Assembly (NCBI GenBank): GCA_964187785.1 | Contig: OZ076409.1 | Location: forward strand, 60,328,001 to 60,392,000 | Direction: 5' to 3' | DNA from: Amphiscolops sp. MND2022 | Taxonomy: Eukaryota | Length of the DNA: 64,000 nt | In this document: positions 3,931 through 45,273 of the stretch, one piece after another | Layout: every line of letters starts with the position of its first letter | Position numbering within the stretch: the first letter of the stretch is position 1 | The notes under the pieces: generated by a model | What the model was told of the DNA's origin: nothing | Seen by the model: the letters and a program-made list of their open reading frames with translations, nothing else | The model's database searches: none | Program-made: the position numbers and the translations under genes

Positions 3931-3996
3931 TTTCACTGCGGCTGTTCACATGTGCAGATGATCATTTTTTAATGCGACCTGGCAATAATTCTCTCA

Positions 3997-19349: not shown

Positions 19350-20912
19350 GAACCATTGTTCATTTCCGCCCCCGCAAATTTATTTGTGTATCGGGGAGGA
19401 AAATTTTAACCTGTGTTGCGTTTTTTTCCCAAATTTTGCCAAATCTCAACTTTTTATTTCATTTTGTATTTAATATTGCGTTTTACTAAGGAGGAGGTGG
19501 GGTTCAAAAACAAGCGCTCCCTTTTGTCCCAACACGCTGTATCCGAACTATTAACGTTATACCCGAAGTTAATTGCATTTTACCAAGCAGGACGTAAATT
19601 TACGATTAAGTGTCAATTGTTAGCTAATTGAATGCGCAAAATATCGTGGTGCATAGCGTCTTGTTTCTCCTGACCTCTGATGAATTCGTGTTTGCTTCTG
19701 GAAAATCCTTTGACAAGAGTCGAGACTGCTTCAAATCGCAATTTATTCAAAAGACGCGGAACAAAAGTGTTTTTCAAACGAGACAAAATCACCAGCTTTT
19801 AAAACGGACAAATGAGCAATTTCGAACATAGGTAAAATCAAAGACAAAGAAACTGGAGTTGAATTATCCGATCTAGTACAATTTTCAAAGGAGTACTTAC
19901 TACAGCTTGTGGTATTTTCGTAATTAGTACTCTTTTTGTGTTAAGTGGCTTTGTCTGATGAAGAAAAAATTAGCTATCAACTGAAAAGAAATTTGAAGCT
20001 TGCCAAGATCTTGCGTATTCTTACAGTTTCTCGTTCGCTCGTCAAAGCCTACATAAGATCTTGTTTATTTTTTGCTTCACAAAAATCTCTTGAATTCCTT
20101 CAAAAGATTGTTGGTAAGAGTCTCAATTTAATATGTATGTAACAAACAAGCTACAGCACCCTTCTTTAAAGTGTTGGTTTTAGGTCAATACCGAATATTT
20201 AATATCAGGATGTGATAACTTGATTGGCAGTGTGAACGGTTGTGCCATTTTTGATACGCTGATCAAGCCGCAGTTGTAGGGGGTTTTGTTCATTTTCATT
20301 CATGATTGTTATCTTTTCTTTTGAAACTGTCGCCGGCGGCAAGATCCTGCAAGGTTGCTTATATTCTTATTACTTTGAAAGTTTTTTTCATCTGAATTAA
20401 AACTCCATTCTCCATTTCAGCACAATTTGAATTTTTAAAACAATTTTGCTGAACTGTTTTTTTCGCTGAATATGTGCAAAAAAAGTTTTTCCCGGTTTTT
20501 CTTCTTCCACAGTTTCCAGCTTTATAATTGAAAAGTGGAAACAGCTGCACTGACCAGTTAAACTTTATCTGACCGCCGAAGATGTAACCCAAATAAAGTT
20601 TCGATTTCATAATTTTCTTGACTAAAACGTTAGAAAGCATTACTGAAAAACTTTGGATTTCTTGGGACAAGTTATTTTTGCTCGAGTAGAATAATCTAAG
20701 GGCCTATATATTTATTTCATCAAGCCTCTAAACTTACAGTCTTGGATGCAAAAGTTGTTGAAAACTCCCGGTTCCTTCTCTAACTAAAGTGTGTTTTTTA
20801 AATCTCATGTTTGTTTCAAAGACTTTGTCGTAATGTTATCTCATCGCGTAAGCAAAAGAGTTGCCTAAGCAAGGCGCCTGTCAATCACCGGGATGTTTAC
20901 TTCCCTTGAATG

Positions 20913-21367
20913 TTTTTAGTCGGCGCTTCAAAAAGTGAAACGCGACTATTATAGTGACTCTTTTTTGTCAATCCACACGAACTGACCAAAATAGTTCTTC
21001 AAAAGTTCTACGAAATATTATGGTGTCAAATTGAATCATTTGGCCTAGCGAATTGAACCAAAAAGGGTTTTCCTGTTTTTCCGCGTAACATACAGTACCG
21101 GGCGAGACTAAAGGGTCCTCCCTTTCAGTTTTTTCGGCATTGTGCTACTTTTTTCGAAAAAAAAAATCCCCAAAGGGTCCCCTTCAATTTTTTGATGTTT
21201 TGCAACAATGGATGTTAACAAATCCGAAAGAGTCCCCGCTTTTAACGCCAATTCGCTCCAACTTCTGGGTTTTTCAGGTACTGTAAAAGAATACTTGACA
21301 CTTTGAAGTCCTATAGCTACTTTTGAGCCTTACATATGACGCCGACTTAAGACGTTCCAGGCTTGTT
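20913..21367 (+). mobile_element. DINE-1/Helentron-like non-autonomous element
   Basis: TTTTTAGTCGGCGC...GCGACT at the 5' end and GAGCCTTACATATGACGCCGACTTAAGACGTTCCAGGCTTGTT at the 3' end. Confidence 0.75.
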
Positions 21368-24300: not shown

Positions 24301-27008
24301 TTCAACAAATCCTGCTTTTTGTAATAGAAATTATATTCGAAGCACATTTGGCGGCTTTCATTCACATTTGCATGACTTTTTCAGGTGGCATCGATTTCAA
24401 AGAAAACCTACTTTTCATTTTACAACAAGTTGAACAAATTGTTGCATGAACAAAACCTGACGGTCAATTACAGTATTAAATTATCAGTGAACGGAACGGA
24501 TATTTTCAGCTTTGATCATAAAGTGATCAGTTGTTTTGCAATATCAAAATTCGTTCACAATTATTGACTATTTTGTTCGGGCTCATCAGAGCGGCATAGA
24601 TGAAAAGTGTTAACGGCGATTGAAAGATCATGCTTTACAGCTCGGACCCTTTGTGTTGAGAAAAAAGGATCCTGTATTTTGTGATTCGCCTTTGATAGGT
24701 GGAAATGAAACAACCGGTCATTAAAATGCGCATCCGATCATACGAACTTCAAGGGTCATCAATAACCTGAAAAGAATGAAAAGTGGAATTTTATTTTTTA
24801 ATCAATTATCTATTCTCTGCGGTTTTCATGTTTTGAGTGGTTTCGTTTTTGAAAAGCCAATTTTAGGAGTTCTCTACGTGTAGGCCTACCGACCCAGTTA
24901 GGTTTCCGTAAATTAAAGTTGTTTTCAACTTCAGAGCCGTAATTTTGGGTTGATAAAGAGTTGAGCTAAGTTGGGGTGATTTTGAAGAAACACTGGCGTT
25001 TTTTCGAAAGTTGAAAATTTTAACGCTATAAATTGAAATATGGAAAGAAAACAGAAAAAAATGACAAGCTACTTCTGAATTGGGGAAATATTCTGTTCGC
25101 ATCTAGCAAGCAAGTTTCAAAAAAGCTTACAAAAAGTTTGAACCAATTCTCCTTTTACAAAGAAAACAATAGCTTACTACCCCTGAATGCGATTGCGATT
25201 TTTTGCGACCAGAATGTCAAAATCGGATTGGTAGATATGTAGTCAAAATTTTGCAGGATTATTTCAAACCCCTTTGCAGAAACTGCTCGCAGCGTATTTT
25301 GGTCACTCGTCAAAGACATGCGGCGAAATTAAATCAAGTCATCGAGTTCTTGAAGCGAAATGCCAACTCGACTTCAACAAAACGTCGCCGTTTTCTCTTT
25401 AAATCTAACCGCGAGGTTGCCAAGAATTGCTGCTTTTTTGCTTCTTTCAAAGTTTCACCACTCCTAGGCAAGTACAAATATTTATATTGGCTATACGAAG
25501 CTTTATTTATTCGACAAACGGGCCAAGTTTTTTTCTGTTGCTAGCTTATGACTGAAGATCTTTTCGGAACTTCAATAGTTTGCAGGGAAGAATGAAGACG
25601 CAGTGAATACACAATCATTTGTGACGTTGTTTACACCGCGAGGGGCGAAAATCAATGGTCCAAAAAGTAGCCTTTGGTGCAAAATAGCTTTAATAAAGTC
25701 GCTTCTTAATTTATGCGCTTCAAATCAACCCCGAACTCAAACAACCCGTACTCAAAAGGGTTCCTAAATCAATGCTTGTAAACCCATGGGAAGTGTAAGA
25801 CTTAACAAACGGCTGAAGTATCGTCATTTCAGGCATTTGATTTCCACCATCAAAGGTTACCCAAAGTAAGAACCTAATATTTGAAGTGATATCATGCTCT
25901 GATTTTTTGCCAAGTTAAATGGAATGTAACCAATCAAATTACATTCACTTTTCTTTAATCAGTCAACATGTTAGCTCTGATTTGAAGTTTCGACATTGTT
26001 GTCAACACAGACTTCAGAAAAAGAACCAGTTTTCAAGTCGCCGTATTTTCAACAACAAGTTTGCAAATTTTCTACACTGGCAAAAAATTCAATGAAACTA
26101 TCTTGAAAATCAATGTTCTCATTTATGTAAACAACTTTCAATTAAAATAGTTTCCTTGAAGGTACCCGAAAATCCAAAAAAAAAACGTAATTGAGTGTTT
26201 TTGTAAATCATCATTTGATAGCTTAAGAAGTTGCCACAAGTTCGTAATTACAGGGTTTGAAATCATTTTGTTAAATCACCAACTTATACAGTCCGATCTT
26301 TAAGTTTAACCTCAAGTAAAACTCATTTACAAATTGTAAAAACGTTGTAAGCATGAAATATTTTACCATCTATGTTAAGCTGTTCACGGCTGTGGACGCA
26401 TTCAGTTATTTAGTTTCGCTTGTTCTCTCGTGATTTCATAAGTTCGAAAAGTTCATACCATGTCGAACTTCCTAATTTTGAAAAACCATTTATTAGTATC
26501 ACAGCTTTTCATAATTCACCCTGTATTTAAACTACCTAGCATCGAAACAAGTTTTGATTCAAAGTATCAACTGAGGAAAAATATTTATATGAAAAGTCTT
26601 CCAATTTGTTAATTTCAGTATTGCGTGTTCTCTTGATAACTACCCAAATTTTCTCGAACGCGGTTTATGATAGGATTAGAAGAATTAGAAGGCAAATATA
26701 TGAAAGAGGCAGATTTTTTAGTCCAAACAGTGGATTCACGTGACAATAAAAGCGGAAGAAAAAACCAGGAAAAACCCATAAAGTGTTCAAACTGCAATCA
26801 TTTTGTACTAAAACATTAGTTCTCAGATCTTTTTGTTTTGATTTTGTTGATCTCAAAAACGTAGGCAAATCAAAAAGCAACAAATTTTTAGAAAATTTTT
26901 ATGAACTCTATCTATCGGAAGAATCAATACATTTCATAAAGAAACTTTTTGTGAATTGAGCCAATTTTCCTCAGATGCTTGTTATATGAACTGCCACATA
27001 AACTTAGA

Positions 27009-28015
27009 ACAAGCCGGGATCGGCCCAAGTCGGCACCATATCTAAGGCTCAAAAATACCAAAAGGACTTCAAAATGTCAAAGTATTGGTGAATTGGGGAC
27101 CCTTTTATGGAAAAATTTTTTTTTCGAAAAAAAGTCTCACAATGCCGAAAAACACTGAAAGAGGGGACCAATTGGGATTTTTCAAAATCCATTCTGTCCA
27201 AAAATATCAAAAAAAATGAAAGTGGGACCCTTCGGTGAAAAAAAAATTTTCGAAAAAAAGTCTCACAGAGCCGAAATTACTCTTTGGCCCCGTTGAGTTT
27301 CTTAAATGATATACAAATACCACTTCGTAAGCTAGGAATTGTAAGAAATTTGAGAATTGTAAGATTGTAAGAATTGTAAGAAAAGTGGACCATTCAGAGT
27401 GAAATTGTCAGCTGAAAAAGAAAACAAGACGGGATCGTCTCAAGTCGGCGCCATATCTAAGGCTCAAAAATATTCAAAGAACAACTATTGGAAACATTTG
27501 GAAAATTTTTTTTCAAAAAAAAATATTGAAATTTTTTTTTCGAAAAAAGTATTTTTTTTAGAAAATCGCACAATGCCACAAAAACTCAAAAAGAGGCCAT
27601 TCAGGCTCATTGAACGTTTTTACAAACCGAAAACTTCAAAAAAATGCAATTGATAGAATCCGAAAATTTTCGAAAAAAAGTCGCATAGTGCCGAAAAAAA
27701 ACCGAAAAAAATCAAACGAAACGAAACAAAGCTTTGGTCTCGCATCTACTTTTGGAAACATAAAAAATTTGTGGTTTAGTGCGAGAATCGAACCCACGAT
27801 CTCCTGCTTTTCAGAAAATTAGTTGAACAAATGTGAACAAATGTGAACAAAGATTGTAAGAAAAGTGGACCACTCAGAGTGAGATTGTCAACTGAAAAAA
27901 AAACTACTCACTGTAAGAGTCGGGCTTTTTTCCTTAAGGGAAAAGGCGCCGACTAAAAACTACCCACTGTAATAGTCGGGCTTTTTTCCTTAAGGGAAAA
28001 GGCTCCGACTAAAAA
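27009..28015 (-). mobile_element. Two nested DINE-1/Helentron-like elements (inner copy 27424-27959)
   Basis: Two ACAAG-hairpin-AAGTCGGC termini (27009 and 27424), and two consecutive stem-loop termini ending CCGACTAAAAA (27959 and 28015). Confidence 0.8.
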
Positions 28016-28399
28016 CACCTGCAAAAGCTGCAGACGTACAAGAAGAGTTAATAATTAGCTCAGTTGGAGAATTTACAGATAAACACACACCTGAGAAAAA
28101 CATACAGTAACTGAATGTACAAATGATTTGATAAATAATAAAATCAAAAATACTATACCGAAACGCAACACAATCGTTCAGAAGGGATAAAACTCAATAG
28201 ACTGAAAACTGCGAGAAAATATATATTTTTAAAAGACAGTAAGAAGATGAGCGTCTTGATCAAAGACGAGGAATAAAAACAAGATACCAATTGCAAAACT
28301 GCGTTAAAAATGTCTACAACTATATTTATAGAACATCAATGGCTATCATATGTAATCAGTAATCACGTCTACCGAAGGTAGATCCCGACAATATGAACA

Positions 28400-28750
28400 A
28401 AATCTTTGTTTCGTTTGGCCGGATGCTGACTTGAAACGTTGACCGAAGTAGTCTTAGTAAGCTCTGTAAGTGAAGTGTTTGAGAAATTGATCCAAAGGCG
28501 CATCACCAAATTTTTCGCCAAGACATATGGTATTACATCAAGAATCAATGGGGGTTTTGCCAACTTTAGGACTCTTGCAGCGGCAATAATTTGTCAATGC
28601 TTGCTGATGTTACTACTACGTTAGGCGCAAAGAAAAGTCATAGTTTGACGATGCGAAGAGAAACACTTGCAGTTTTTGACTGGAAGGCAAGTAATAAAGT
28701 AACAATCAGTATTGACCAATGCGAGGTGATGTGCTTTCGATCCGCAATTC
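28400..28750 (+). pseudogene. Highly decayed LINE reverse transcriptase remnant
   Basis: LVSSVSEVFEKLIQRRITKF resembles the RT segment SLLSxxSKxFEKxI. WKASNKVTISIDQCEVMCF resembles WxxxNxLxxNxxKxxxMxF. It is frameshifted and has large deletions. Confidence 0.5.
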
Positions 28751-29054
28751 TACTATTGGACTACTATTTAAGCAACCAATCTCAGTCGATTCAATGTCAA
28801 ATTTCCACTAGTGAGAAATTATTGGGACCTTGTGAGTTGCGACCACACAATCCGTTGTTATTGCAATCTGATAGATTTGGTACTCAGCTGTAAACCACTG
28901 AGCTACCAGGTCCACACTACCGAGAGTCTTACTTTCTCTCTTGAACTTTTCTTATTCAAGCTTTTTTTATCACAACTCACCATGAGAGTGAACAATCTAA
29001 CTTTTTCTTTGAATGAAAATTAGGGAAACACCGGTCCAATTTCAAACATCTTGT

Positions 29055-29386
29055 AAACAATTTAATTCAGCAGAAAAATAGTTGATCCAATCAAGGTTTC
29101 GACTCACAGATTTTACACGTGAGTTCTTTGTTATAGAGTTCGTCACACCTTCTGACGAAATTGCCTTCCTGTGTTCTAGAACTCTCACAATTTCACAAAA
29201 TCTCTTCAAAATCAAGCAATCATTGCGTATTGTGCTTCTGCAAAGCGACTTCTGCAGAAGCACAATAGGCAATGATTGTTTAATAATTAGGAGAATTTGT
29301 GTGAGATTTTCTGAACACAGGAAGGCAATTGCGTCAGAAAGTGTAACGAATTCTATAAAAAATATCTTCTGCAGTTTTAATTGTTT
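29055..29386. repeat. Long imperfect palindrome (foldback)
   Basis: Core arms of about 110 bp (about 29131-29242 and 29252-29358) are reverse complements, for example CAATCATTGCGTATTGTGCTTCTGCA and TGCAGAAGCACAATAGGCAATGATTG. Weaker outer pairing reaches about 29055/29386. Confidence 0.85.
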
Positions 29387-29731
29387 ATGGAATAAATTTT
29401 GAAGAGATTCAAAAAGAGTAATTCAGACAACTCCGGTTTGGATCCCCAATTACTAACTACATGAAACGTTGAAAGTTATCACTACTTTTGCGAGAAAAAA
29501 TATCACAGGACTACTCCCTTCCATATACAGGAAAACATTAACCAAAGAAAGTCACTCGCCGATTCTTTACTGATAACGAATCAATGGCCCACTGGATTGA
29601 AACTGCTGTCGATGAAATTTTAAAAATTTAGAAGCATTACTTCCATGCAAAAAAACAATGTTTAATACATAATCCACTTGTACGTTGTTGACAATAGATA
29701 TCGTTTTCAATGTATGAATTAAGTCATTTAC

Positions 29732-32700
29732 TCCACTGATGAAAGCATTACCCATCAAATCGACAATTGTGTCAAGAACTGGAAGATTGGATCCTTTTAG
29801 AGATGTTTATTGTACTGTGACTGGGTATCAAACAGACTCAAATGAATAAACTATTCTTTTATTTTTCCATATTCTGTAAAAAACGCCATTGAAACTCGTC
29901 AACTCGTCGGGACAAGCTATCCGGTCGCGTATTTTGCGTTTGCTTTTCTGAACAAATTTCTACTGAAGGAAAGATTCAGATATAACAAACAAATTTCGGA
30001 TTCATTGAAAATGTTGCTCTTTTTGCAAAACAGGGGAGAGTTCGAATTCAATCAACTTCGAAATTTTTCCAACTGAATTTCAGTAGTTGCCGAGATGCTG
30101 AAGGGAAAATATTTGCTGAGCTGAAACCATTCTTTCATAAATGTACCAATTAAATGTAGATATAAAAAGTGTTTCTTTGAATTTTTGTTAAATTTTGTAC
30201 TTCGACAGTTTTGGCTGTACAGAACCATTTGCGTAGTTTTTTCTACCAGTTGCAAAGGGTTCTTTTCAAACTTTGAGTGACGACTGGCAGCAGTTTTTTG
30301 TTGGCCTTGCCTTTAAAAATTGTTTAGGGTTTGAGATTTCAAACGTTTAGCAACATCCTCTGAGTAAGATCAATGTGAAAAATACCTGACGCTGTAGTTT
30401 TACTAGTACGACTCAACACCAAGATTTGGTTCGAAGTTACACATAATCAGCCAGGAGAAAAAATTTTGCGCTTCTGTTTCACTAATGCTGAAGTAGAATT
30501 ATGTCTCGGTTTTCGACGCCATTGCTACGAATTACCCTGGAGAGTTTGAGGACAGTTTAGCGTGAAACAAAACGTACGAATAAAGATGTGCATTCACTTC
30601 ATCCAACAGTCTTTTCACCCCAAATCGTTTTGCTCCAATTTTGCTCCATATCATTTCACTCCACGTTCAGTTCATTCCGCACTCATTTCACCCCATGTTG
30701 ATTTCAACCCATATTTTAGGTATTTGAAAGCGTCTCGCCCGTATCAATCGATTGACAACGAAACGTTGTTTCCCATTGCCCAATTTGTCTCAGCTTTGTT
30801 TGATAAACTGATTCTGGCCATGCGGAAAATTAAAAAGCGGAAAACGTAATTTATTTCTGAAGGTTTGCATTATTCGTACTTGAAACTTCAATTACGCAAC
30901 GAGAGCTTTATGGTAAAAGTTGCGGAAAAACTCTCATAGTCTGATTCATGAATAGTCCGAAAACGGGATGCACCATAAAGAGGCTCATTTTCATCATAAC
31001 CAAAACGCGATGATTATGTATGTTAATTAGTGTATTATGTTAATTGATGCATTTGAGTAAAAAATTGTGTATTGAAAACAAAAAATTGAGTAAAATAATT
31101 GAGTATAAATATAAAAAGTTTTAAGCATATCGTGCATCAGAATTTTGCTCCCACACAACAACTAATACCCATTTGAAATTTTTCAACTGTGAAACGCTCG
31201 CGTTGAAGACTAAGAACACGTTTTAAATATGAAAAAAGTCGCTCAATCTCGGCACTGACCTTTCGCGCGTACTTCAATTTCTAAATATCTTATGGGCTTG
31301 CATAAAAACTAGCGACTTGGTCATCTATCTCGCAGCACGGCTGCTAGTTTTTCAAAATAGTCCACTGATGAAAGCATTACCCAATAAATCGACAATTGTG
31401 TCAAGAACTGGAAGATTGGATCCTTTTAGTTTATTGTACTGTGACTGGGTATCAAACTGACTCAAATGAATAAACTATTATTTTTCTATATTCTGTAAAA
31501 AACGCTATTGAAACTCGTCGGGACAAGCTATCCGGTCACGTAGTTTGCGTTTGCTTATCTGAACAAATTTCTAATGAAGGAAAGATTACATGATTCAGAT
31601 ATAACAAACAAATTTCGGATTCATTGAAAATGTTGTTCTTTTTGCAAAACTGGGGAGAGTTTGAATTCAATCATTTCCGATTTTTCCCAACTGAATTTTA
31701 GTAATTGCCGAAATGCTGAAGGGAAAATATTTGCTGAGCTGAAACCATTCTTTCATAAATGTACCAATTAAATGTAGATATAAAAAGTGTTTCTTTGAAG
31801 TTTTTGTTAAAGTTTGTACTACGACAATTATGGCTGTACAGAACCATTTGCGTAGTTTTTTCTACCAGTTGCAAAGGGGTTTTTTTCAAACTTTGAGTGA
31901 AGACTGGCAGCAGTTTTTTGTTGGCCTTGCCTTTAAAAATTGTTTAGGGCTTGAGATTTCAAACGTTTAGCAACATCCTCTGAGTAAGATCATTGTGAAA
32001 AATACCAAATGCTGTAGATTTACTAATACGACTCAACACCAAGATTTGGTTCGAAGTTACACATAATCAGCCAGGAGAAAAGATTTTGCGCTTCTGTTTC
32101 ACAATCACACTCTAATGCTGAAGTAGAATTATGTCTCGGTTTTCGACGCCATTTCTACGAATTACCCTGGAGAGTTTGAGGACAGTTTAGCGTGAAACAA
32201 AACGTACGAATAAAGATGTGCGTTCACTTCATCCAACAGTCTTTTCACCCCAAATCATTTTGCTCCAATTTTGCTCCATATCATTTCACTCCACGTTCAG
32301 TTCATTCCGCACTCATTTCACCCCAGGTTGATTTCACCCCATATTTTAGGTATTTGAAAGCGTCTCGCCCGTATCAATCGATTGACAACTAAACGTTGTT
32401 TCCCACTGCCTAATTTGTCTCAGCTTTATTTGATAAACTGATTCTGGCCATGCGGAAAATTAAAAAGCGGAAAACGTAATTTATTTCTGAAGGTTTGCAT
32501 TATTCGTACTTGAAACTTCAATTACGCAACGAGAGCTTTATGTTAAAAGTTGCGGGAAAACTCTCACAGTCTGATTCATGAATAGTCCGAAAACGGGATG
32601 CACCATAAAAAGGCTCATTTTCATCATAACCAAAACGCGATGATTATGTATGTTAATTAATGTATTAAGTTAATTGATGCATTTGAGTAAAAAATTGTGT

Positions 32701-32989
32701 ATTGAAAACATAAAATTTAGTAAAACAATTGAGTATAAATATAAAAAGTTTTAAGCCTATCGTGCATCAGAATTTTGCTCCCACATAACAACTAATACCC
32801 ATTTCAATTGTTCAACTGTGAAACGCTCGCCTTGAAGACTAAGAACACGTTTTAAATATGAAAAAAGTCGCTCAATCTCGGCACTGACTTTTGGCGCGTA
32901 CTTCAATTTCTAAATATCTTATAGGCTTGCATAAAAACTAGCGACTCGGTCATCTATCTCGCAGCACAGCTGCTAGTTTTTCAAAATAG
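29732..32989. repeat. Head-to-tail tandem duplication with 1,629-bp units (29732-31360 and 31361-32989)
   Basis: The units align colinearly with scattered substitutions and small indels. TCCA occurs at 29732, 31361 and 32990, i.e. at all three breakpoints. Confidence 0.93.
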
Positions 32990-34170
32990 TCCAGGTTAAG
33001 ATTTTTTCGAAGTACCTGATCCAGCCTTTTCTTGTGCTTCGTCGTCGCCAAACTGTTTAACGACTTTTCAAAATCTTCAATTAGCTTCACACTTTCAATA
33101 GGTGGCAGCCTACCATTGACTGCTCCAACTGAGTGATTGAAGCAGATTAATTAGGGCTTCAACTGATTACTCCAAGTAACTGATGATCTTCAACTGATTG
33201 ATGATCTTTTTCCAATTGATCGATATATTCGCAGATTTTCGTGAAACTTTCACAATAAAAAAACGCTTTGCATCCATGTACCCCATAACGTATTCACAAC
33301 TTTGGGAGGCAAGTGCAAACCAGTGATGTTCTTTAAGTCTCGCTTCCCGCGTCCAGATTTTGATAGGAATTTTTTCATAGAAAATAGAAATTTATCCACA
33401 ATTTCATGTTCAATACGAATAAATTCTGCAAGATAATGTAGCCTATGAGCCAAGCAAGTCACGTGCTGGTTTGCAGAAGGTTTGCAAACATGCTGTTCTT
33501 CATATTTTCTCGAGTTTGTATAATGTAGCTAGCAGCGTGACTAACCAGAACTCTCACTTCTTCGTATGAATTTTTGTGTCCATATTTTTTTACCGGGCTG
33601 GAATTGATGAATTGTGTCATCTTAGCAATGTCGGTTTTTGGCAACTCAGCGATATCAATCAGTGAAGGTTTTCCATAGCCCTCACCATCGAGAACTTTCA
33701 TCAACGTCAAGGAGTTTTCTTTACCTTGTAATCGTTCTTTAATTTGGCGAGCATTTTAGAGAACTCACTTTGGAGGTAGTTTTTTCGGAGGGTTGACTCA
33801 CTGGGAGCTTTTTTCGGGTGTATTTTTCCAAAAATGCTTTGAAATCATGATTATCATTTTTTGATTGAAGAATATTCGCTTTTACGAACGCCTGGACCGT
33901 ATTCCGATGACAAACACTTTCTGTCCACGACGATGTTGGTTGATCATCTAGGAATAACTGTCTGCGCAATGTTGCGGCAACATTGTGTTTGTGTTTGTTT
34001 GATTCCACATGCGTTTTAACCCGGAATTTGACTTAATCATTGTAATCGATTACCTGCGGACAAACTTGACAAACAACTTGATTGGTAATCGAGTTGATTT
34101 TCCAAACATTTCGCGCTCACTAAGGTTTGATACAAACAAAGATCTTGGTATTTGCTGTTTTGGTATAGCT
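32757..34170 (-). pseudogene. Decayed hAT transposase of the CGGBP-like group
   Basis: Minus-strand fragments occur in the expected order: CQVC...HVESNKH zinc finger, AFVKANI..NHDFKAFLEKYT, TCLAHRLH (CxxH), NTLWGTW (TRW-like) and YAPKVSAEIERLFSYLK (catalytic E region), ending at a TAG near 32757. There are many frameshifts and stops. The C-terminal part is duplicated at about 31130-31360. Confidence 0.85.
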
Positions 34171-37100
34171 GTTTTTTGTGTGAATGTGTTTAGAACAAAG
34201 TTTTATGACTTATAGACAGAGATAATACAACTAAAACGATGCTGTACTGCGCTTTATCAAACAATTGAACCTGAAAACAAACAACTCCTTTGTTAAATGT
34301 AATTATTAGTCAGATCCAATAGAGAGAATTTACACAATTTGAGTGAAAAATTGAGAAAAAAAAACATTTTATTGAGTAAAAAGGTAAACATTGAGTAGTT
34401 GCGTAAAATATAGAATACTCAAGGAATTACTAGGCCTTCCTGTAAGTGAGGATTAAAGATGTGTCTTTGTAGCGGATCAGGTACTTTTTGGTGCGCTTCG
34501 AGATCGGCTGTTTTGTTACCGTTACATAATCAGCCCCTGTGCTAGGTTTAATAAATCGGCGCGTTCGCTATGCCTGATATTAGTCCATTTGGAGGCGCCC
34601 CTTTCCATTGATTGATGTTGTTTTTTTTTGTTTTCGTTCTCAAAGAAAGCATATTTTATCTAATGGGTATTTAGATTCCGGACGTGTTTCTTTTAGCATT
34701 AAGAGTGAAATTGTGTCACCAAAGGTCATTAATCTCAGACGCATGTGAATAATTAAAATGTGGGGTGACATGAAAGTGTTTTGAAACAAATGTGGAGGTA
34801 AATGATTTTGGTGTAAAGTGATTTTGGAGTGAAATGGTTTTGACCCGCAAACAAAATGTCCAGTCTTCAATTTTTTTGATTATGAATAAGCCGCAAAATG
34901 ACTGTTAAGTTGGTCGTGATGAAACTCAGATTACACAAACAAAGCTTCAATTACCAATACTTTGAAAATTTGATGGATGCAGTCTCTAGCAGCGGATGAC
35001 CGAACTCTAAATACTGGGCATTTGCTACAAGAACATTTGCTTCGGAGCCACTTACTACCAGAGACGTTTGCTACTACAAGCAAAATGCTACTAAGCTAAT
35101 TGCTACTTTTTGGGTGCTCCTACACAGTGATCAATCAGACTAATAGGTGAATGATGAAAATCAACTTCGCTGAAATATTTGTCAAAATTGGCCTTCAAAT
35201 AAGCCGTGACCATGTTAACAAGGACCTAACGGTGGATTTGCTCGTCTTTTTTAGACACTCAAAACTAGAGGAGCTGACCGATAGTCCCATGGTTAACAGT
35301 TATCAACCTCATAGTTAGTATTAGTAGCAAATGTCCTAAAGGCAAGCGTCCTGTAACAGTAGTAACCACTCTTCAAGTTCTGATGACCAAATATGATGTG
35401 AATTCGTCAAGATTTCCATTGAATAATTTTGAATTTTGTGTTAGCAAGTATATTATTGTATCAGAGCTAAAAAAAAGTATGCTTTCCGTTTTGTCTTTGC
35501 CAGTGGTCGGGGTGTTTGCAATCTGTTAACAGAATAGCTAAAAGTCGCGTTTTTAAAGATGCGCCGTACCAGATTTTATGAAAACCTAATCAAGTTTTGA
35601 CTGCTTGCAAGAATACATTTTTCCAAGCTTGACCCCTGGATCCAGGGTCGACATGGTATTCGATTAGGTATCTTCTTGTAGTAACATTTTGCTCTAAACA
35701 AGGGAACTTCTGTCCAAATGATTTTTAAACAGCGAGATTTGCTCAACAAGCGGGCTCCTAAATTTTTCTGTTCACTAGAGTCCAAGAAATTGGACAAATA
35801 AAGTACCGTGTTTTCCGTGTTATGATGGATGCTCTGAATGTAAGACACTTACCACGAATTTTATTGGTAATTTCAGAATAATTTGCCCTTATGTGTACTT
35901 TCATAGCTGAAACGCCGTGTCTGGTAGTAGCTGATTGAAAATCTAGTGATAAGTTGGTTTACGATTGATCAACAGCTCTACTAATGAAATTTTCATTTGT
36001 TGGGCAAAATCAAAACTTTGAAACGACTTTCTCGTTTTAAAAATGTAAGACGTCTTCGTTTATAAAACGTCGTGTAGCCCATCGCGGAAATAAAAGGCAT
36101 GCCTGACAACAGAACATGACAGGTGTCAAGGATTATATCGCAAAACTTGTATTTGTCAGATTGGAATAAACACAATTCATGCAACGAAAATTTGGAACTC
36201 TGATTTGAGTTTCGATGATTTTGATTTTGTTCTTTGGCTCAACACGATGCTGAAACAAAAATTTTTGAAATCGAGAGAAACTGGAAAAAATATCGCAGCT
36301 GTCGGAAAATCGGTGTTTGTTTTCGAGGGAAGCTTTTTTGCGCGTGAAAATCGTACTAATAAGGAGCTTCTGATTTTAATGATTTTTTTTAAACCGTACT
36401 GAATCGTTTTTCATAACTTGTATCTTTTGGGAACGTTTCTCCGCAATCGATATTTGAATATTTGAATTCATTTGTTCAGATAAATATTGAAAGTATAGAG
36501 ATATTCCTTCAAAACGTTTTTTGTCGGCTACTTCACACGACATGAAAGCGATAGAACACAAAAGTGTTTTAAACATGTTGGCGAGATAAATCTGTTGGCG
36601 TAATTTTCCCCATTATTGACTTTCTTTGATAAAAATTGATGTTGAAAGGCAATACGACGAAAACCCCGACAAAAGAGCTCAAAGTGCAAATTTGCACCGT
36701 TTTTGTAGGAAAATTAGCTTTGAGCAGGTCGCCTGAATGTTTGAGACATGTTTCAGCCAGAAGGTTAAAAACCATACAAGACTAATTGAAAGTGTCGCAA
36801 GAATCATTCATGCTACATATTACTTCTTCGAGTTTTCTTGAAGCTTGACTCAGCTTGACTCAAAACTAGCTTGACTCAGAATTTAGAACACTGAAGAGAA
36901 TTTTTGACCGTGAATAATAACTTTCTTTAGAAGTTCGGAGAAAAAACATATTTAGGCTCTCAACGTCTTCACACATTCATAACGACTTTTAAAACAAAAT
37001 CGAAAAATGCACCATAAATAATCAATAGCTGTAATAAAAATTGATTCATCATTGCAATCTATTTAAAGTTTGTGGATATTACTTTCGTCAGCATCTCCAA

Positions 37101-38353
37101 AACATAGCTGGAAACTTGTAACTTTAAAGATACTTTTTTGAAGCGACTTTTTAGAAAAAATTTAGTATGATTGTTAAAAGGACTAAAAAATCCTACCATA
37201 TGGCATCTTGAATATAGAAAAAAACTATTTTCACCAGAATTATTGTTTACTCAAAGCAAAATCTCTATTTTCTGAAAAAGAAAAGGCCTTTTTTAAATTA
37301 TGAACAGGATTTCGTTCAACAAGTCTTTTTGAGGGACTATTTCTCTACTTTTCAATTGAGGAAATTAATTCATAGCTGACGGAATTTTTGGTCAGTGACG
37401 CAAAATAAACTCCAGTTTCGTTTCCTGACTCGTCTTTGAAAACAGGATTAGAACCCAAATTGATTTTCACTCAATTTAATTGCGCGTCACCTGATAATTC
37501 TGGCAAATATTTGGTTTGAGTCATAACATCAGCGGATTACCTTTTTTCATCCTTTTTCAGGCTTTCTCAACCTTTTTTGTTGCCTTTTTTAAGCTTTTTG
37601 CATTTTTTACATCACGTGCTGGAGACATTGTCGCCGGAATGACTGCTTCGGTGGAGAAAATGTCTGACTTGAAGGGAAATTATTAATCTCCAAATTGATT
37701 GCTTCCAGTGATGATAGTCTCTGTAATTTCTGAAAAAAATGGAGAGAAAAATGATCAGGACTTCGGTGAGATTGGAAGTAGTCTTGAAATGCCTTGACAT
37801 GGAAAACAACCAACAAATGGAAGACGGAATGAAAAATGACCTGAAGTCAATTTTTGTTTTACGGTCTGTCAAAGAAAAGATTTATAAGGCATCTGTCACT
37901 TGAGCAAAATATATTTTCATTTTTATTCAGCTGGGAAACTGGGAAGCAAGACGTCAAATGGGCAGTTTTGTGGAAATATTATTAGCTTGAAGTAGTAAAA
38001 ATCAATATCAGTGGAAAAGCAAGTTGCAACTGGGTAGATAACGTTTATTAAAGGTCATTAATTTCCCCCAAAAGTGATTTGACTTTAAGGTTGTTTAAAA
38101 AAAGGAACTCGCTAGAACATGGCGTAGAAGCATTGATTTGATGATCCTAAAAAAGATTTAATGCTGCTGTTATGAAAATAAGTTCTGAACTCTATAAGTT
38201 GTGATGTATTTTCAGGCACTCTAAATCTTACTTGAGAACAAAAAGACTCGATTTTAGTTCCAATTTTTTTAAACATCAAATTAACTGAATTTGGATTCTG
38301 AACTTTTAACGTGAGTCCGGTGTTTTACCATTTGTTGATCATGAGACATCAAC

Positions 38354-38810
38354 TTTTAGTCGGATCGTTTTGTTTGTTCACAGGCGCTTCCAAGGCAGAC
38401 GGCCGTCGCTTCGACGCCTGCCGAGGACGAAATAGGTCAAAGACGTGTCAAAAATCTCCCCTTTTGGTTTCTCCGTCATTGTGAGACTTTCGAAAAAAAA
38501 ACTTTTCACCCTTCGGTTTTTCCTTATTTCAACTCCCAGGAAGACGTTTTACAAGCCTAAAGATTCCTATCTTGTGGTTTTTGGCGATATGCGATTTTTT
38601 CAAAAAAAACTTGTTTCTATCAATTTGATGTATTTTTGATGTTTTCATTAAAAGAAAAGCGTTTTTGGAGACCGCAAGTAGCCTTTACGGATATTTTTAC
38701 CACTCTGAGAGTTATAAACATTTTGTGAAGGCCACCCTGAGCATTTCAACGAGACTTTGCACTTTTTGAGCTTTAAGCGTTGCGCCAACTTTAGACGGTC
38801 TCGTTTGTTT
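38354..38810 (+). mobile_element. Diverged DINE-1/Helentron-like element
   Basis: TTTTAGTCGG at the start and TTTTGAGCTTTAAGCGTTGCGCCAACTTTAGACGGTCTCGTTTGTTT at the end. Confidence 0.5.
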
Positions 38811-39329
38811 CCGTTTACATCGGTTGTCCTTAAAATATTAATTGTTTTAGACAACAATTCAAAACCTCTTTTTCCAAATTTTGCATGCTGCTTGCAGATG
38901 CACGCAGCTGCAGCCAAGGAAAATCACTTTTAATCTCAAACCAAATATCGGAATATCAATCAAGTTGGAAAAGAAATATTCACTCAATAGTGTTTTGTTT
39001 CCCCTAGTTGAGACTGCTTGAACGTTTTACATGCTGCAGGCCTGCATGCAGGGTAATTTTTAATAAAACCTAGAAAATTCAGTATGCATCCGTTGGTAAA
39101 TCTTGTAGAATTACACTGCATTCTCCACTACTGCAATTAAATTTGAAAATATTTCCCTATTCTTTATGGACATGATCACGTTTTATTCACACATTAATTT
39201 CTCAACTACTCATCTGATTTAACCACCACTTCTCAAATAGGACGCCGAAGATGACGCTAGTTTGCTGTTTACATTGTGAATGAAATTAAATTGCATTGAA
39301 ATGGCGGCAAAATTGTGAACGTCTCAGAT

Positions 39330-41676
39330 CATGGCTGTCAGAAATATGCGGGACTTATTTCCGCATATTCCCGCATTTTTTTAGTTTTTAATTATCCGCA
39401 TATGCAACTGCATATTTCTGAGAAATTGGCGTGACCAGTTGTCACGCGTGATGGAAATTTGACAGCCAATCAAATTGAGTGTTGCTTCTTTCGCACCTAA
39501 ATAGGCAACTTTATATTTCTGAGAAATCGACGTGACCAGTTTTCACGCGTGATTAAAAGTTAACAATCAATTAAATTGCGTGTTGCTTTGAAATTGCGTC
39601 TTCGCTTTCAAGTTCACTTGTTTCTATATGATTAAGACAATGTCTGAGAATGCTGATATTTCTCTTGTGACTTTTACTACAGACCAGTTAACCAAACAAT
39701 TAGAAAATAATGCACATTCCGGTCATTACTCGAAAATCACTGCACTTCAAAGAGCCCAACAAGCACAGAATCGCACAACATTTTATGCTGATGACAATAT
39801 TTTGTTCTGCAAAACCTGTTCGTGCACTGTTGATCATAGCCGACAATCAAACCTAGAACAACATTGCAAGACTAAAAAACACATTCGTAACTGCGAATCT
39901 ACTCAACCAGCAAAGAAGCAAAAAACCATTACCACAACTCTAAACATAAAGAACCCTGCTAGTTTGGAGAAAGTGAAAATGATTACTGATTATATCCGAG
40001 TTTTAGCGTCAACAAACACGCCTTTCCACACAATCAACAACCCAATGGTGAGAAAGTTCTTTCGAAATCACGTTTCTGGAGGGGGAAGTTTACCAACACG
40101 TCAAGGCCTTAAACCGTATTTGGACGATGTTTACGATGTTGAGCGTCAAAATTTGCTTATAAAAGTCAGCAAAATGAAATTGCTTGTTATTATTGATGAA
40201 ACCTCCGATGACGAAGGCCGTTACGTAGTCAACGTTATGTTCACCGTTGTTGGAATAACATCTGAGCACTGTAAGCTGAAATCTTATTTAGCATCAACTT
40301 ATTTCGAGAAGAAATCAGTGGACCATCAAAAAGTGAGCCAATTAGTCATCAGAACAATAAATGATTACAAAATTGATTTCAGAGACGTAATTGGCTTTTG
40401 CTCTGATAATGTAGCTTATATGATCAAAGCTTTTCGTGAAGTGTTGAAACCTTTATTACCGAACTGCGTGCACTTATCGTGTGTTGCTCAAATCATTCAT
40501 CTTGTGACTAAAGATTATTTGAAACCTTTCACTCATGCCCTCAACTGGATAAAATTGTGGCCTCTGTATTTTAGTCATTCAGGAGTGCGTAAATTCAGGT
40601 TCTTACAATTTCTCAAGACAAAAAATCTCACACCGAAGACTGCTCCTATACCAAGTTTAACTCGGTGGGGCACATATTTTGAAGCAATATCTTATCATGC
40701 TGAATACTTTGATGAAGAGTGCAAGTTTATACATTCCGAGTTGGATATTTTTGGAGACAATGTTCCGAGTATTCTCAGTGAGCTCAAAGAAATTGTCAAT
40801 AATAAAGACATCTGGCAACAAACAGTGATGGAAATAACTTTCCTGAAACCTAGAGCGTCTCTCTTTGACAATGCACTCAATATATTCCAATCACAGTTAG
40901 GGCAAAGTATTTTTATATATCCCCAGATTGAAGTGCTTATTCGAGAAGTTACCAATTTGAGAGAACTCAACGACTTGACTATATTGGATCATTTCGATGA
41001 CGAATTTTTTGCTGACTTGCCCATCCGGACTCTACAAAATTTCGTGAGCATTGTTACAAGAGCAGCAGAAGAAGCACAAATGAAGTTATTGAAATATTTT
41101 GGTTCGAGTGTTGGTGTTCATCCAAGTTTGCAGTTTTTACAAAATGTTCCATTTTTCAACCCTCAATGTTGCTTCAATTTTACTGAGCCTAATTCAATTC
41201 CTGGTTTCGATGATGTTACTCCGGGAGAAATTTTTCTATACAAAGAGAAGGCCAAAATGTTCCAAATGCCCTTAGATTGTCCAACAAATATTGAAACACT
41301 TACTGAAAAAATTTATGCAATCCATCAATTTTGGGTATCCAACAGGACAACACTGCCAAACCTATCAAAAATAGCACTTGATTATGCTTTTTTGCATTCA
41401 GCCTCAGCAGATGTTGAAAGAAGTTTCAAGAAGTTAACTTGTGTTTTCACCGAAGAAAGAAGAAGTTTTAACGAAGAAACTTTGTGTAAAATGCTTTTTC
41501 TGTTTATAAATCTAAATGTTGATGCCTGAAATTGAAGTTTCATCTGCGTTTTTCTCAAGAGTTGACTCAAGGTGTTAGCCGTTTAAGAAAACATAAATTT
41601 GCATATTTTTCACGATTTTAATTAACGTAAAGTTGCATATTTTGTGGAAAAAAGCCGCATATTTCTGACAGCCATG
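39330..41676 (+). mobile_element. Full-length hAT-superfamily DNA transposon (2,347 bp)
   Basis: Perfect 22-bp TIRs CATGGCTGTCAGAAATATGCGG (39330-39351 and 41655-41676). Perfect 8-bp TSD TCTCAGAT (39322-39329 and 41677-41684). Subterminal GCATATT repeats at both ends. One uninterrupted ORF. Confidence 0.96.
39628..41529 (+). CDS. hAT transposase (633 aa) with CGGBP1-like N-terminal zinc finger/DNA-binding region
   Basis: Zinc finger LFCKTC...HCKTKKH. Catalytic and hAT motifs IIDETSD, CSDNVAYM, HLSCVAQ, TRWGT and SADVERSF. The ORF is intronless and lies between the TIRs. Confidence 0.93.
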   Translation: MIKTMSENADISLVTFTTDQLTKQLENNAHSGHYSKITALQRAQQAQNRTTFYADDNILFCKTCSCTVDHSRQSNLEQHCKTKKHIRNCESTQPAKKQKTITTTLNIKNPASLEKVKMITDYIRVLASTNTPFHTINNPMVRKFFRNHVSGGGSLPTRQGLKPYLDDVYDVERQNLLIKVSKMKLLVIIDETSDDEGRYVVNVMFTVVGITSEHCKLKSYLASTYFEKKSVDHQKVSQLVIRTINDYKIDFRDVIGFCSDNVAYMIKAFREVLKPLLPNCVHLSCVAQIIHLVTKDYLKPFTHALNWIKLWPLYFSHSGVRKFRFLQFLKTKNLTPKTAPIPSLTRWGTYFEAISYHAEYFDEECKFIHSELDIFGDNVPSILSELKEIVNNKDIWQQTVMEITFLKPRASLFDNALNIFQSQLGQSIFIYPQIEVLIREVTNLRELNDLTILDHFDDEFFADLPIRTLQNFVSIVTRAAEEAQMKLLKYFGSSVGVHPSLQFLQNVPFFNPQCCFNFTEPNSIPGFDDVTPGEIFLYKEKAKMFQMPLDCPTNIETLTEKIYAIHQFWVSNRTTLPNLSKIALDYAFLHSASADVERSFKKLTCVFTEERRSFNEETLCKMLFLFINLNVDA

Positions 41677-43043
41677 TCTCAGATGCATTTAAAATTAGAA
41701 CTGATGCATATTGAAACTTGCAGAACTTCACGGCTTGAAATTGCCGCCAAAACTTTGATGATTCTTTGAAGCAGCTTGATAAAAGTTGATGACAACAGGG
41801 AAATAATAACGCATTGAAGTTTCCGTAAGAGATTTAGAAAATCATTGAAAAAGTTGCTGGCAACTTTAAAGAACATATAAAAAATTCAAGCAAGTTCAAC
41901 AAGGGTCCCCATCATCCTCCTTAAACGTCCGCCCCCATTTTCTCAGTTTATTTTAGTCTCAGCTTGAAAGACAAAACGGAACTTGATTGAAGTTTCACAC
42001 TCAGTCAAAACAAATTCAAAAACTGGCCCTAAATAATGGGAAGACCTTTTCTGAGGATGCTTCACTGTGAATTGAAAACTTTTTGTCATTCCATAATTAC
42101 ATAATGTAACACTGAGCTGTTTTCAGTTGGGCCATTCTTGAAATGTCAGTTTTGGAAGAGGCGGACAGAAAATATTTATCAGATCAGAGGCTTTATGCAG
42201 CTTTTCAAACAGCCTTTGTTTTTTGTGTAGGCGAGTTCTGTTCTTGAATTTTGTCTTCGGAAGCTCTTAATGCAATGATGGCGATTTTAAAAAAATGTTC
42301 AGTTTCGTTTCTTGTCGAAACGAAAGATTTCCTTTTGTGTTTGTATAGAGAAATCTCTTTTAAAAAGGTGCACAGTGCCGAATACCCCACAAGCGGACCC
42401 TTTGATCTCGTCTAGTTTTGCAGCCAAGAAAGATATGCGCGTCCTCTTTCCTAATTTTTCACATTCTTAAAATCTCATTCTTAATTGTTTTGAAAACCTA
42501 CCAAGAAAGCGGCCTTATTAATTTACAAAAACTAAATCATTTTCAAAAGTGGACGCTTGAGGGTCAGCTGAAAAAAAACGTCAAAGTAGGAGTCTGCTCT
42601 TTTTCTTTGAAAAGCGTTTGACTAAAAACTCCAGAATGAAAATGATCAGTTGACTATAAATTTTTTCAGTGTCAAACGTTTCAGATCAATTGATGCGGTG
42701 TCGTTTTAGTAGTTTAATGAGATTATTCATCACAAAAAACGCCTATTTACACTTGTTACGACCATAGAGTAACTGCCGAGACAGTAATAAATGTCGTCCT
42801 TTTTGTGTTTTACCCCCAAATTTTAAATTGCTCCTTTTCTCCACTGCTAAATTTTTTTTGTTTTCCAGTTATTTTTACTTTGAAAAACTTTTATTTGACT
42901 TCATTCGAACCATTATCAACTTTCAATTGATTTAATTGATTGAAACTAACTTTTGAGCTTTCGTTCCATGTTTAGGACGAAATTACTTGAAAAAAAATAA
43001 AGCAAATCAGTGTTTGACCATTTTATTACGTTTAACAATTTTA

Positions 43044-43360
43044 ACAAGACGAGAACGTCTCAAGTCGGTGCCAGCTTTAGGTTCCGAAAAGTCTGCGGCT
43101 TTCGATTATGCTGAGAAGGCTTTTTATTGAATCTCTTAAAAATCTAACAGTGCCAAAAAACACTCCTTGCTTGAAAATGCTTTCTTCCACTTCAGAATGT
43201 CAAAAACCATTATAAGACACTTCAAAAACTCTCAAAAAAACTCGAGTGCCTAAAAACCCAAAGATGTCTTTTTGGAGCCCGCAAAAGCGTTTTAAATCTC
43301 GGAAGATCAAAAAATATCTTAATTGTTCTCAAAAAGTCTTTCAATGCCAAAAAATTTAAC
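43044..43360 (-). mobile_element. Partial, diverged DINE-1/Helentron-like element
   Basis: ACAAGACGAGAACGTCTCAAGTCGGTGCC terminus. The far end is not identifiable. Confidence 0.5.
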
Positions 43361-45273
43361 GGTACTGTTTTCTGTCCTTGTACTGTTTTCTGTCTTGTAG
43401 ATCTACACTCGTTTCCCCTTTTTGGTGAACTTTAAAAACGGGGTTTAATATCGAGAGAGTTGCAAAACAAGTTTTGTGATTAAGCATAGTTTTCTCTGAA
43501 AAATGCAAACACTGAACAAAAGTTGTCCAAAACCCAATTTTGAGGCTACATGGTTTAATCGTTAGAGCATCAGGCCTGGTTTGTTACGGTATTATAATAT
43601 ATGTAGTAATATAATAAAAATATTTTATATTTTTTCCTTCATCAGATACCATGAATCTTCGTCATCAATCAAGTGCCATGTGTGTCATCATGTTGAGAGG
43701 AGAAGACGCACATTCGTGGTCTGCTATGGCGAAAGGAGTTAACTCCATACCAGCCACTTTCTCAGTCGACCAGTTTTACATTTTGATCCATATAATTGTT
43801 GGTAATTTCGGATCGGAAATATGTCCATTCCAAGTGGATGAGCCGATAACTTGGCCTGTGGTTTCGTTTGCGGAGCAGTGTTCTTGTATTGAATCGCAGT
43901 TGCATGCAAAAAGTCAAATTCTGCGTGTGAAACTTGTGGAATCTTCTACATTAGTCACGCTCTATTGAAATCGACTGTTGACTTGATATTCAAGGTAACC
44001 AAAAGCGCAGTATTTTGCGATATGATCATTCTTCAAAGAAACTGATCTTCTTAAGTGATGTGGACCCGCCGAAAAACGCAATTTATTATAGAAATGCCAA
44101 CCGTGACAGGACTCACGATGAGAATGTGGCCTCCGCAGAGTCCCAAAAAACTAACAGCTCAAAATTTTTCAAACACTATCCATTACATGAGCTAAAACAA
44201 AATGAAATTAGAAGCATATTGTCGGACATTTAGTTCTACTGAAAACGAAGCACTCAGTAATTGGAAAATGTCCTTATTCTGGGTTGGAGGCTCTGCTAGT
44301 GCTATGTTTCGGTCGTATTGGGCTTTCAAATTCCGGTTCCGGTCGAGTTCCGGCCGTACAAAAATTCCTCTTTCGGTGTACCTCTAATATTTACCGTTTT
44401 GACCGTCCCAAAATGATAAGCAAAAATAATGAATTTCAAAATGGCCGCGTCCAAACTTCGAATTTTTCAAATTTAGAATTTTTCATAAATCTTGCAAGAT
44501 ATTTGCAGCAAAATGTTTTTTTTTCAAAAATCTTGTAAGATATTTTGTAAGATTTGCATACTTCTAAAAAATCTCGCAAGATTTGAATTTAGGTCCCCAA
44601 TCTTGCAAGGCAAGGTAACTTTCAAATGCAAGGAATTGGCAAGAATCTTAAAAGATTTGCGTTTAACTTCATCCAGGGTATATTCGAACTTCTCTCAACC
44701 CATCATTGTTAGGCATTGAGCAAGTTCTTCACCCGTAGATTAGTGGTATGGTCATTACAAAAAATGTCTTTGGTGGAGGGAACACTAATGACAAAATAAC
44801 CGCAAGCAATCAGAACTTTGTGACCTTGAGAAAGTCCCTTCGAAACCACAGGTGTTTGTTGACCACTTAGTTGCAAATATGATACCGTACCTTAGCATAG
44901 GAGACATTGTGCACTAAGGGTGCCGACTCAGCAAAACAGAACTGCTTATACGGCGTTCACTCCGCCAAAATGGCATAAAACGTGTTTTTCTCCAACGTTC
45001 AACTGTTTTAGGCAATTGGTTAATGTTTCATGTTTATGTATAAATAAGTATCCACAGTGTTCAACTAGAATTTTCCATACTCATGTATGGTGAAATAATG
45101 TTTTTCTTTAAAAAATGAACCAAATAGTGTTAAATTTGTCTGAAAGTTTCTTTTTTTGAAAGTTCGTAGTTTATTTAGCTTTAAAATGTCTCCCTAATAG
45201 TTTGGGGCAGAAATGCTCACCGTGCATTTAGCTTGCGTCTTTTGTTATTATATTGTGAGTTCTTTTGTTTTAG

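What the first reader, a model, noticed from the sequence alone, without database searches (positions are those of the whole stretch)
39330..41676. Structurally intact CGGBP-type hAT transposon inside a cadherin intron
Seen: perfect TIRs, a perfect 8-bp TSD and an unbroken 633-aa ORF, which suggest a young insertion. Established: vertebrate CGGBP1 derives from hAT transposases. From memory, residues about 35-180 (LFCKTC...HCKTKKH...KKQKTIT...EKVKMITDY...NTPF...NPMVRKFFRNHVSGGGSLP) track human CGGBP1 (LFCTSC...HLKSKTH...KKQRPLT...EKVSVIQDF...NIPL...HPAVRAFLSRHVKNGGSIP) over nearly its whole length. Inference: this is a possibly still-mobile, free-living relative of a domesticated DNA-binding protein.
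Basis: partly seen in the sequence, partly recalled or inferred. Interest (0 to 1): 0.7.

Follow-up and report, generated by a model that had tools for sequence, protein, structure and literature searches.

The report
Young hAT transposon, one catalytic mutation
This is a recently inserted cut-and-paste "jumping gene" of an already described group related to the human DNA-binding protein CGGBP1; its family looks recently mobile, but this copy has one change in the enzyme's active site that probably stops it from moving itself.

Summary
The element is 2,347 bp, with perfect 22-bp inverted ends, an exact 8-bp target duplication and a 633-aa hAT transposase. It lies in a 44.4-kb cadherin intron. 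The N-terminus is CGGBP-type: 29-33% identical to bichir 'CGBP1' and a coelacanth relative. Amniote CGGBP1 itself could not be retrieved.

The family is very young. Otherwise identical full-length proteins sit on four other contigs. Public runs show five junctions with different flanks, and there are four internal-deletion derivatives.

This copy is not fully intact. Its CxxH motif reads C-V-A-Q (codon 40489-40491). All 7 other family contigs covering the site have His, as do 125 of 131 homologs. The equivalent Hermes H268 is essential for transposition. The copy is therefore probably a non-autonomous point mutant that its siblings could still move; an assembly error is not excluded.

Free-living CGGBP-type hATs (mostly hAT-19) were described in 2021, and other intact families are closer to vertebrate CGGBPs than this one. 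Verdict: a new member of a known kind. Its modest value is that the His-bearing siblings are candidates for a transposition assay.

The parts
39322..39329 (+). Left target-site duplication TCTCAGAT
39330..39351 (+). Left terminal inverted repeat, 22 bp, perfect; ends in the motif ATATGCGG
39344..39417 (.). Left cluster of CCGCAT/GCATATTT motifs (CCGCATAT at 39344-51 minus, 39361, 39396; CCGCAT at 39371); inferred transposase BED-finger binding sites
   Evidence: 4 of the 5 CCGCATAT matches in the window are at the element ends (2 of them inside the TIRs); shuffles give mean 0.52. Function inferred from Hermes (PMC10368747 passages)
39400..39588 (+). Two 88-bp subterminal direct repeats 101 bp apart (84% identical), each holding the palindrome CACGCGTG, which occurs nowhere else in the window; role (binding sites or promoter) untested
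39628..41529 (+). Intronless 633-aa hAT transposase ORF (start at M1 39628 or M5 39640)
39730..40167 (+). CGGBP-type N-terminus (residues about 35-180): BED-like finger L59, C61, C64, H79, H85, then a Hermes-type DNA-binding/dimer domain with P132 and P156
40195..40197 (+). First catalytic Asp D190
   Evidence: D in 120 of 129 homologs with a residue; aligns with the first Hermes Asp in the profile alignment
40405..40407 (+). Second catalytic Asp D260
   Evidence: 133 of 134
40480..40491 (+). CxxH motif, here C285-V-A-Q288 (codon CAA at 40489-40491); siblings have His
40666..40668 (+). Conserved Trp W347 of the RW motif
   Evidence: 107 of 112; aligns with the Hermes TRW motif
41317..41505 (+). 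hAT C-terminal dimerisation region (residues 564-626) including catalytic E597
   Evidence: PF05699, E 3.3e-8; E in 68 of 76
41601..41664 (+). Right cluster of GCATATTT motifs (41601, 41635, 41657)
41655..41676 (-). Right terminal inverted repeat, 22 bp
41677..41684 (+). Right target-site duplication TCTCAGAT
825..45273 (+). Host cadherin intron (44,449 bp, GT..AG) that contains the element

Best explanation
This is a recent insertion of a young hAT cut-and-paste transposon family of the CGGBP (hAT-19-like) type. Inferred from Hermes: the His-bearing transposase of sibling copies binds the CCGCAT-containing ends through its BED finger, cuts the element out through flanking-DNA hairpins using D190/D260/E597 and the CxxH His, and inserts it with an 8-bp stagger, which made the TCTCAGAT duplication. 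Shown here: anatomy, residues, fold, sibling copies, deletion derivatives, and junctions with different flanks. This copy acquired H288Q at or after insertion, so its own transposase is probably defective in excision. Its ends are intact, so siblings could still mobilise it. In the intron it is most likely a neutral passenger removed by splicing.
For: The protein's 90% cluster has 6 members. P0155 (633 aa, 3 contigs) and P0157 (629 aa) differ from the window protein only by H288; P0158 has H288 plus one other change. Both public-run contigs covering 40491 (X1 and X3, two studies) read T, giving CAT = His. His is present in 125 of 131 homologs with a residue in that column, and none has Gln. 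A family profile aligns the motif to the Hermes CxxH, E 1e-19. Literature passages: Hermes H268A abolished transposition and Muta1 H307A cut it by 99.5% (PMC5225508); the Kat1 CxxH double mutant nicks but makes no hairpins (PMC4763223); the His contacts the scissile phosphate (PMC7780238). Mobility: 5 displayed junctions (4 left, 1 right) in runs X1, X2 and X5 all have flanks unlike the window's. The 17 element pieces I tallied are 91-99% identical to the window copy. Four different internal deletions are seen: P0005, P0156/P0159, 39602>40903 and 40809>41173. AlphaFold model pLDDT 92.5; the top 10 Foldseek hits are all Hermes.
Against: No experiment on a His-to-Gln change was found; the published mutants I read are to Ala, and the main Hermes structure paper was not held. 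Q288 rests on one base in one assembly and could be an error, since no reads of the source are available. The flanks of the sibling contigs could not be seen, so some may be one locus in several assemblies or haplotypes. The public runs are low-depth contigs and may come from related species. No empty site was seen, and no run covers this copy's own flanks next to the element. No whole genome is held, so copy number is unknown.
Confidence: 0.72

Rival explanations
1. The copy is fully autonomous: Q288 is an assembly or sequencing error, or Gln is tolerated.
For: It is the only amino-acid difference from P0155 and P0157 and rests on a single base. All other catalytic residues are present.
Against: It is a substitution, with only a 3-A run around it. 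The copy has at least one other base not seen in relatives: 39454 is G here and A in all four runs, so private mutations are plausible. 0 of 131 homologs have Gln there.
Confidence: 0.17
2. Early domestication: a catalytically dead, full-length DNA-binding protein kept by the host, for example as a repressor of its family.
For: CGGBP domains were domesticated dozens of times (PMC8097297). The bichir 'CGBP1 protein' and the coelacanth relative are long proteins with altered catalytic motifs (alignments). The one change here hits catalysis and spares DNA binding.
Against: The TIRs and TSD are perfect and the protein is otherwise identical to siblings, so there has been no time for selection to show. 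There is no evidence of expression: RNA-library contigs also carry flanks and cannot show transcription. There is no second sighting of Q288.
Confidence: 0.05
3. The family is already extinct: copies are alike because of a past burst or repeated assembly of a few loci.
For: Diverged relatives exist: P0036 82%, P0029 86%, and pieces down to 91%. No empty site or excision product was observed.
Against: Zero amino-acid differences over 629-633 aa among 4 contigs. Perfect TIRs and TSD. Five distinct junctions.
Confidence: 0.06

Closest known systems
CGGBP-domain hAT transposons, mainly the hAT-19 subclass (hAT-19_Crp, hAT-13_LCh, hAT-1_RPr, hAT-4_LMi; Yellan et al. 2021, PMC8097297; main text to the methods and the supplement text read)
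   Same: BED-like finger plus Hermes-type DNA-binding domain with the conserved Leu, Cys, His and Pro residues; single ORF; length about 2-2.5 kb (plot axes of Fig. S3); CGG-containing motifs in the ends; marine invertebrate hosts are already listed (Table S1).
   Different: A separate family; its nearest relatives are unnamed ENA proteins at 46% identity. It was not compared with Repbase or Dfam consensus sequences, which are not available here.
Hermes (Musca domestica hAT transposase; PDB 4D1Q, 6DWW, 8EDG)
   Same: Fold (Foldseek E about 1e-13), DDE, CxxH, RW, C-terminal dimerisation region, 8-bp TSD, short subterminal repeats.
   Different: 13-15% identity, perfect 22-bp TIRs against imperfect 17-bp ones, a different end motif, and Gln in place of the H268 equivalent in this copy.
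Vertebrate CGGBP-type host proteins: Polypterus 'CGBP1 protein' KAG2455269.1, Latimeria XP_006007065.1, and amniote CGGBP1
   Same: 27-28% identity over 563-617 aa (E 7e-62, 2e-63); N-terminus 29-33%; same broad clade in a quick tree, SH-aLRT 99.
   Different: Those are host genes; this has TIRs, a TSD and near-identical siblings. A sister relationship was not resolved, and other intact transposases are closer to them (45% against 32%).

Membership tests
hAT superfamily | Short TIRs (10-25 bp) and an 8-bp TSD (PMC3942097 passage) | tested here: met
   22-bp TIRs, 8-bp TSD. Length 2.35 kb is slightly under the quoted 2.5-5 kb.
hAT superfamily | DDE transposase with insertion domain and C-terminal hAT dimerisation region | tested here: met
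   D190, D260, E597; PF05699 above its cut-off; profile and fold match Hermes.
hAT superfamily | N-terminal BED-type zinc finger | tested here: met
   C61, C64, H79, H85 conserved; Atlas neighbours are zf-BED clusters. Pfam zf-BED itself did not hit, as reported for CGGBP1.
Autonomous (active) hAT copy | Intact C/DxxH histidine | tested here: not met
   Q288 in this copy; met in siblings P0155, P0157, P0158.
Autonomous (active) hAT copy | Demonstrated excision or integration, or insertion polymorphism | not testable with these tools
   No genome held; no empty site in 4 runs. Only indirect signs: different flanks and identical siblings.
CGGBP-type / hAT-19 | Match to the PANTHER/InterPro CGGBP1 model | not testable with these tools
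   Model not held. [quoted passage not shown]
CGGBP-type / hAT-19 | Seven conserved residues (2 Cys, 2 His, Leu two before the finger, 2 Pro; PMC8097297) | tested here: met
   L59, C61, C64, H79, H85, P132, P156. Which two prolines the paper means is inferred; its Fig. S2 alignment is not readable as text.
CGGBP-type / hAT-19 | Significant alignment to vertebrate CGGBP-type proteins | tested here: met
   Bichir and coelacanth proteins, N-terminal pairwise E 1e-18 and 2e-20. Amniote CGGBP1 itself was not retrieved.
CGGBP-type / hAT-19 | Clusters with Repbase/Dfam hAT-19 consensus sequences | not testable with these tools
   No such library is held.
Hermes-like target preference | nTnnnnAn target sites (PMC10368747 passage) | tested here: inconclusive
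   Six sites (window plus 5 junctions): T at position 2 in 4 of 6, A at position 7 in 4 of 6, both in 2 of 6. The looser YnnnnR fits 6 of 6 (background 0.25 per site). The pattern was chosen after the fact, and one site assumes the element's first base is T.
Domesticated CGGBP host gene | Loss of TIRs, truncation or introns, fixed single locus | tested here: not met
   TIRs and TSD perfect, intronless full-length ORF, near-identical siblings. Fixation was not testable.

The most novel reading that the evidence does not exclude
The family is transposing now, and its disabled copies are expressed as DNA-binding proteins that act on the family's ends or on host CGG/CCG sites. These would be this full-length H288Q copy and the in-frame deletion copy P0005, which encodes a 176-aa, CGGBP1-sized protein with the finger and 6 of the 7 conserved residues. 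That would catch a CGGBP-type domestication at its first step, beside a working parent transposase.
Probability: 0.08. Interest if true: 0.62.

Novelty: new member of a known kind. Interest (0 to 1): 0.3.

Why it matters
The element type is known, so novelty is limited. The useful point is practical. The His-bearing sibling transposase (P0155, identical on 3 contigs) with these ends is a candidate for a transposition assay of a CGGBP-type hAT. I saw no such assay among the titles and abstract openings listed by searches (20 of 1,964, 1 of 1 and 15 of 21 papers; open-access library only). The H288Q copy is a natural negative control. The case also shows that perfect ends plus an unbroken ORF do not establish autonomy.

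Tried and rejected
Own-genome copy count: not possible, no genome is held. TIR scan of JGI metagenome contigs: 13 exact 19-mer hits; none extends beyond 25 bp or has a transposase nearby, so they were rejected as chance. Other copies or MITEs in the window: none. Amniote CGGBP1: two profile searches returned fungal, fish and unnamed proteins but no amniote one, so the human comparison stays untested. Hickman 2018 (Hermes H268 structures) is not held; secondary passages were used. The tree finished only in quick mode with 50 selected rows and no outgroup, so no order of descent is claimed. Transcription: X2 and X3 are RNA libraries, but their contigs include element-flank junctions and cannot show strand or level; not counted as evidence. 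The empty-site flank translated in six frames shows no long ORF. No complex prediction was run. Earlier-findings searches gave nothing by sequence or place, and only unrelated hAT notes by words.

Full report
OBSERVATION. The element spans 39330-41676 (2,347 bp). Its first and last 22 bases are perfect inverted repeats, found nowhere else in the window with up to 3 mismatches. It is flanked by TCTCAGAT on both sides, and only length 8 gives a match. One ATG-started ORF, 39628-41529, encodes 633 aa. The left end holds two 88-bp repeats 101 bp apart. Both ends carry CCGCAT/GCATATTT motifs: 4 of the 5 CCGCATAT matches in the window lie at the ends, against 0.52 expected by chance.

HOST CONTEXT. 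Three cadherin exons (ending at 824; 45274-45367; 60529-60761) have canonical splice sites and join in frame without a stop. The second and third complete one cadherin repeat. The element lies in the 44,449-bp intron 825-45273, in the sense orientation. The host is not identified. The public runs holding the family are marine or seawater metagenomes and metatranscriptomes from 3 studies, which fits a marine animal (inference).

PROTEIN. Pfam gives the hAT dimerisation region (E 3.3e-8) and DUF659 below its cut-off. A 92-sequence profile aligns to Hermes over profile positions 118-568, E 1e-19. The AlphaFold model has pLDDT 92.5, and its 10 best structural matches are Hermes chains. I aligned the protein with the 153 homologs then held (3 and the best 150 of 1,735). 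D190, D260, W347, E597 and the finger residues C61, C64, H79, H85 are conserved in the homologs and present here.

CGGBP LINK. Residues 20-200 score 0.95 against an Atlas cluster named CGGBP1-like and equally against zf-BED clusters. A profile of the N-terminus finds a Rhizophagus protein named CGGBP1. The full protein aligns to a bichir 'CGBP1 protein' (27% over 617 aa) and to a coelacanth protein (28% over 563 aa); residues 35-180 give 29% and 33%. The seven residues that PMC8097297 links to DNA binding appear to be present, with the proline assignment inferred. The relationship is real but not special. Ranked by likeness to the coelacanth N-terminus, the protein is 89th of 253 hits, while another multi-copy family with an intact motif (P0178/P0179) reaches 45%. 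A quick tree puts it with unnamed families P0002, P0003 and P0173 (support 99) inside a larger group with the fish proteins (99), without resolving sisterhood. PMC8097297 already reports the domain in 29 of 824 Repbase hATs, 13 of 16 hAT-19, including marine invertebrates, and obtained motifs for four such transposases that match their subterminal regions. PMC9004415 (passages) adds hAT19 fossils in amniotes.

The CxxH motif reads C285-V-A-Q288. His stands there in 125 of 131 homologs that have a residue in the column (22 of the 153 have a gap); none has Gln. The protein's own 90% cluster has 6 members, of which 3 others cover the site. P0155 (633 aa, on 3 contigs) and P0157 (629 aa) differ from the window protein at this residue only, and P0158 has His plus E359K. 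Both public-run contigs that cover base 40491 read T, giving CAT. So 7 of 7 other contigs have His. The profile aligns this position with the Hermes CxxH. In passages I read, Hermes H268A abolished transposition and Muta1 H307A cut it by 99.5% (PMC5225508). Kat1 C402A/H405A nicked DNA but made no hairpins (PMC4763223), and the His contacts the scissile phosphate (PMC7780238). I found no test of Gln at this position, so the defect is inferred. An assembly error cannot be excluded.

FAMILY ACTIVITY. Four of 5 listed runs were laid. Five displayed junctions (left end in X1, X2 twice and X5; right end in X2) have flanks unlike the window's and unlike each other. A further left-end contig in X3 runs into letters that were not displayed. 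Seventeen element pieces from table 8, totalling 2,929 bp, carry 79 substitutions, range 91-99%. I left out one 34-bp piece of X5 and the pieces on the flanking host repeat, and 22 records were not shown by the tool. The six 8-bp target sites all fit YnnnnR and 2 of 6 fit Hermes' nTnnnnAn; this is post hoc and rests on one assumption. Four different internal deletions are seen: two as DNA joints and two inferred from proteins. P0005 implies an in-frame loss of about 1,026 bp between ACAA microhomologies and gives a 176-aa product. Older relatives at 82-86% protein identity also exist. Limits: sibling flanks are unseen, the runs are low-depth contigs possibly from related species, no empty site was observed, and no genome is held.

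MECHANISM. Shown: the anatomy, residues, fold, siblings and junction diversity. Inferred from Hermes (PMC10368747 passages): BED fingers bind the subterminal motifs, the DDE core with the CxxH His excises through hairpins on the flanking DNA, and staggered integration makes the 8-bp duplication. A sibling's enzyme most likely placed this copy, which then acquired H288Q. It should remain movable in trans.

VERDICT. A real, young, CGGBP-type (probably hAT-19) transposon and a new member of a known kind. The family is probably recently active and this copy probably non-autonomous. Interest 0.3. The supplement of PMC8097297 was read as text, but its alignment figure is an image and could bear on the residue assignment; supplements of the other papers were not read.

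Noticed in passing
window 53227-54682: Tc1/mariner-like element: 128-bp inverted repeats (98%) starting and ending in TA, with a transposase split over three frames (Pfam DDE_3, E 1e-13). It lies in the next cadherin intron.
   Followed up: partly
window 9529-11355 (+): LINE reverse-transcriptase remnant (Pfam RVT_1, E 6e-39) broken by a stop at 10575; a similar-looking C-terminal piece lies at 51622-51957 on the minus strand.
   Followed up: partly
window 2600, 14060, 15050, 18820, 27005, 27420, 43040, 58850 (+); 4430-4514, 21290-21370 (-): An abundant dispersed host repeat with a conserved core of about 48 bp, about ten copies in both orientations; not classified.
   Followed up: no
window 30057-31364 and 31675-32993: Tandem duplication with a period of about 1.62 kb, 94-97% identical.
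   Followed up: no
window 45718-46148: Foldback structure made of 15-bp subrepeats, arms about 90 bp, just downstream of the small cadherin exon.
   Followed up: no
window 39002-39082: Short piece of another high-copy repeat 250 bp left of the element, at high depth in runs X1 and X3.
   Followed up: no
run X1, left junction at 39330: Its flank ends in CGTCTCAGC, sharing CGTCTCAG with the window's flank but shifted by one base. This may be chance or insertion into a related host repeat; unexplained.
   Followed up: no
proteins P0002, P0003, P0173, P0178 and their clusters: Four further CGGBP-type hAT families, each with several copies on long ENA contigs and an intact CxxH. Full-length copies are 98-99.8% identical in the P0002, P0003 and P0178 families; P0178 is identical on 3 contigs and is closer to vertebrate CGGBPs (45%).
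   Followed up: partly
protein P0005: In-frame deletion derivative of this family encoding a 176-aa protein: the first 135 residues identical to the window protein, then residues from 478 and a frameshifted tail.
   Followed up: partly
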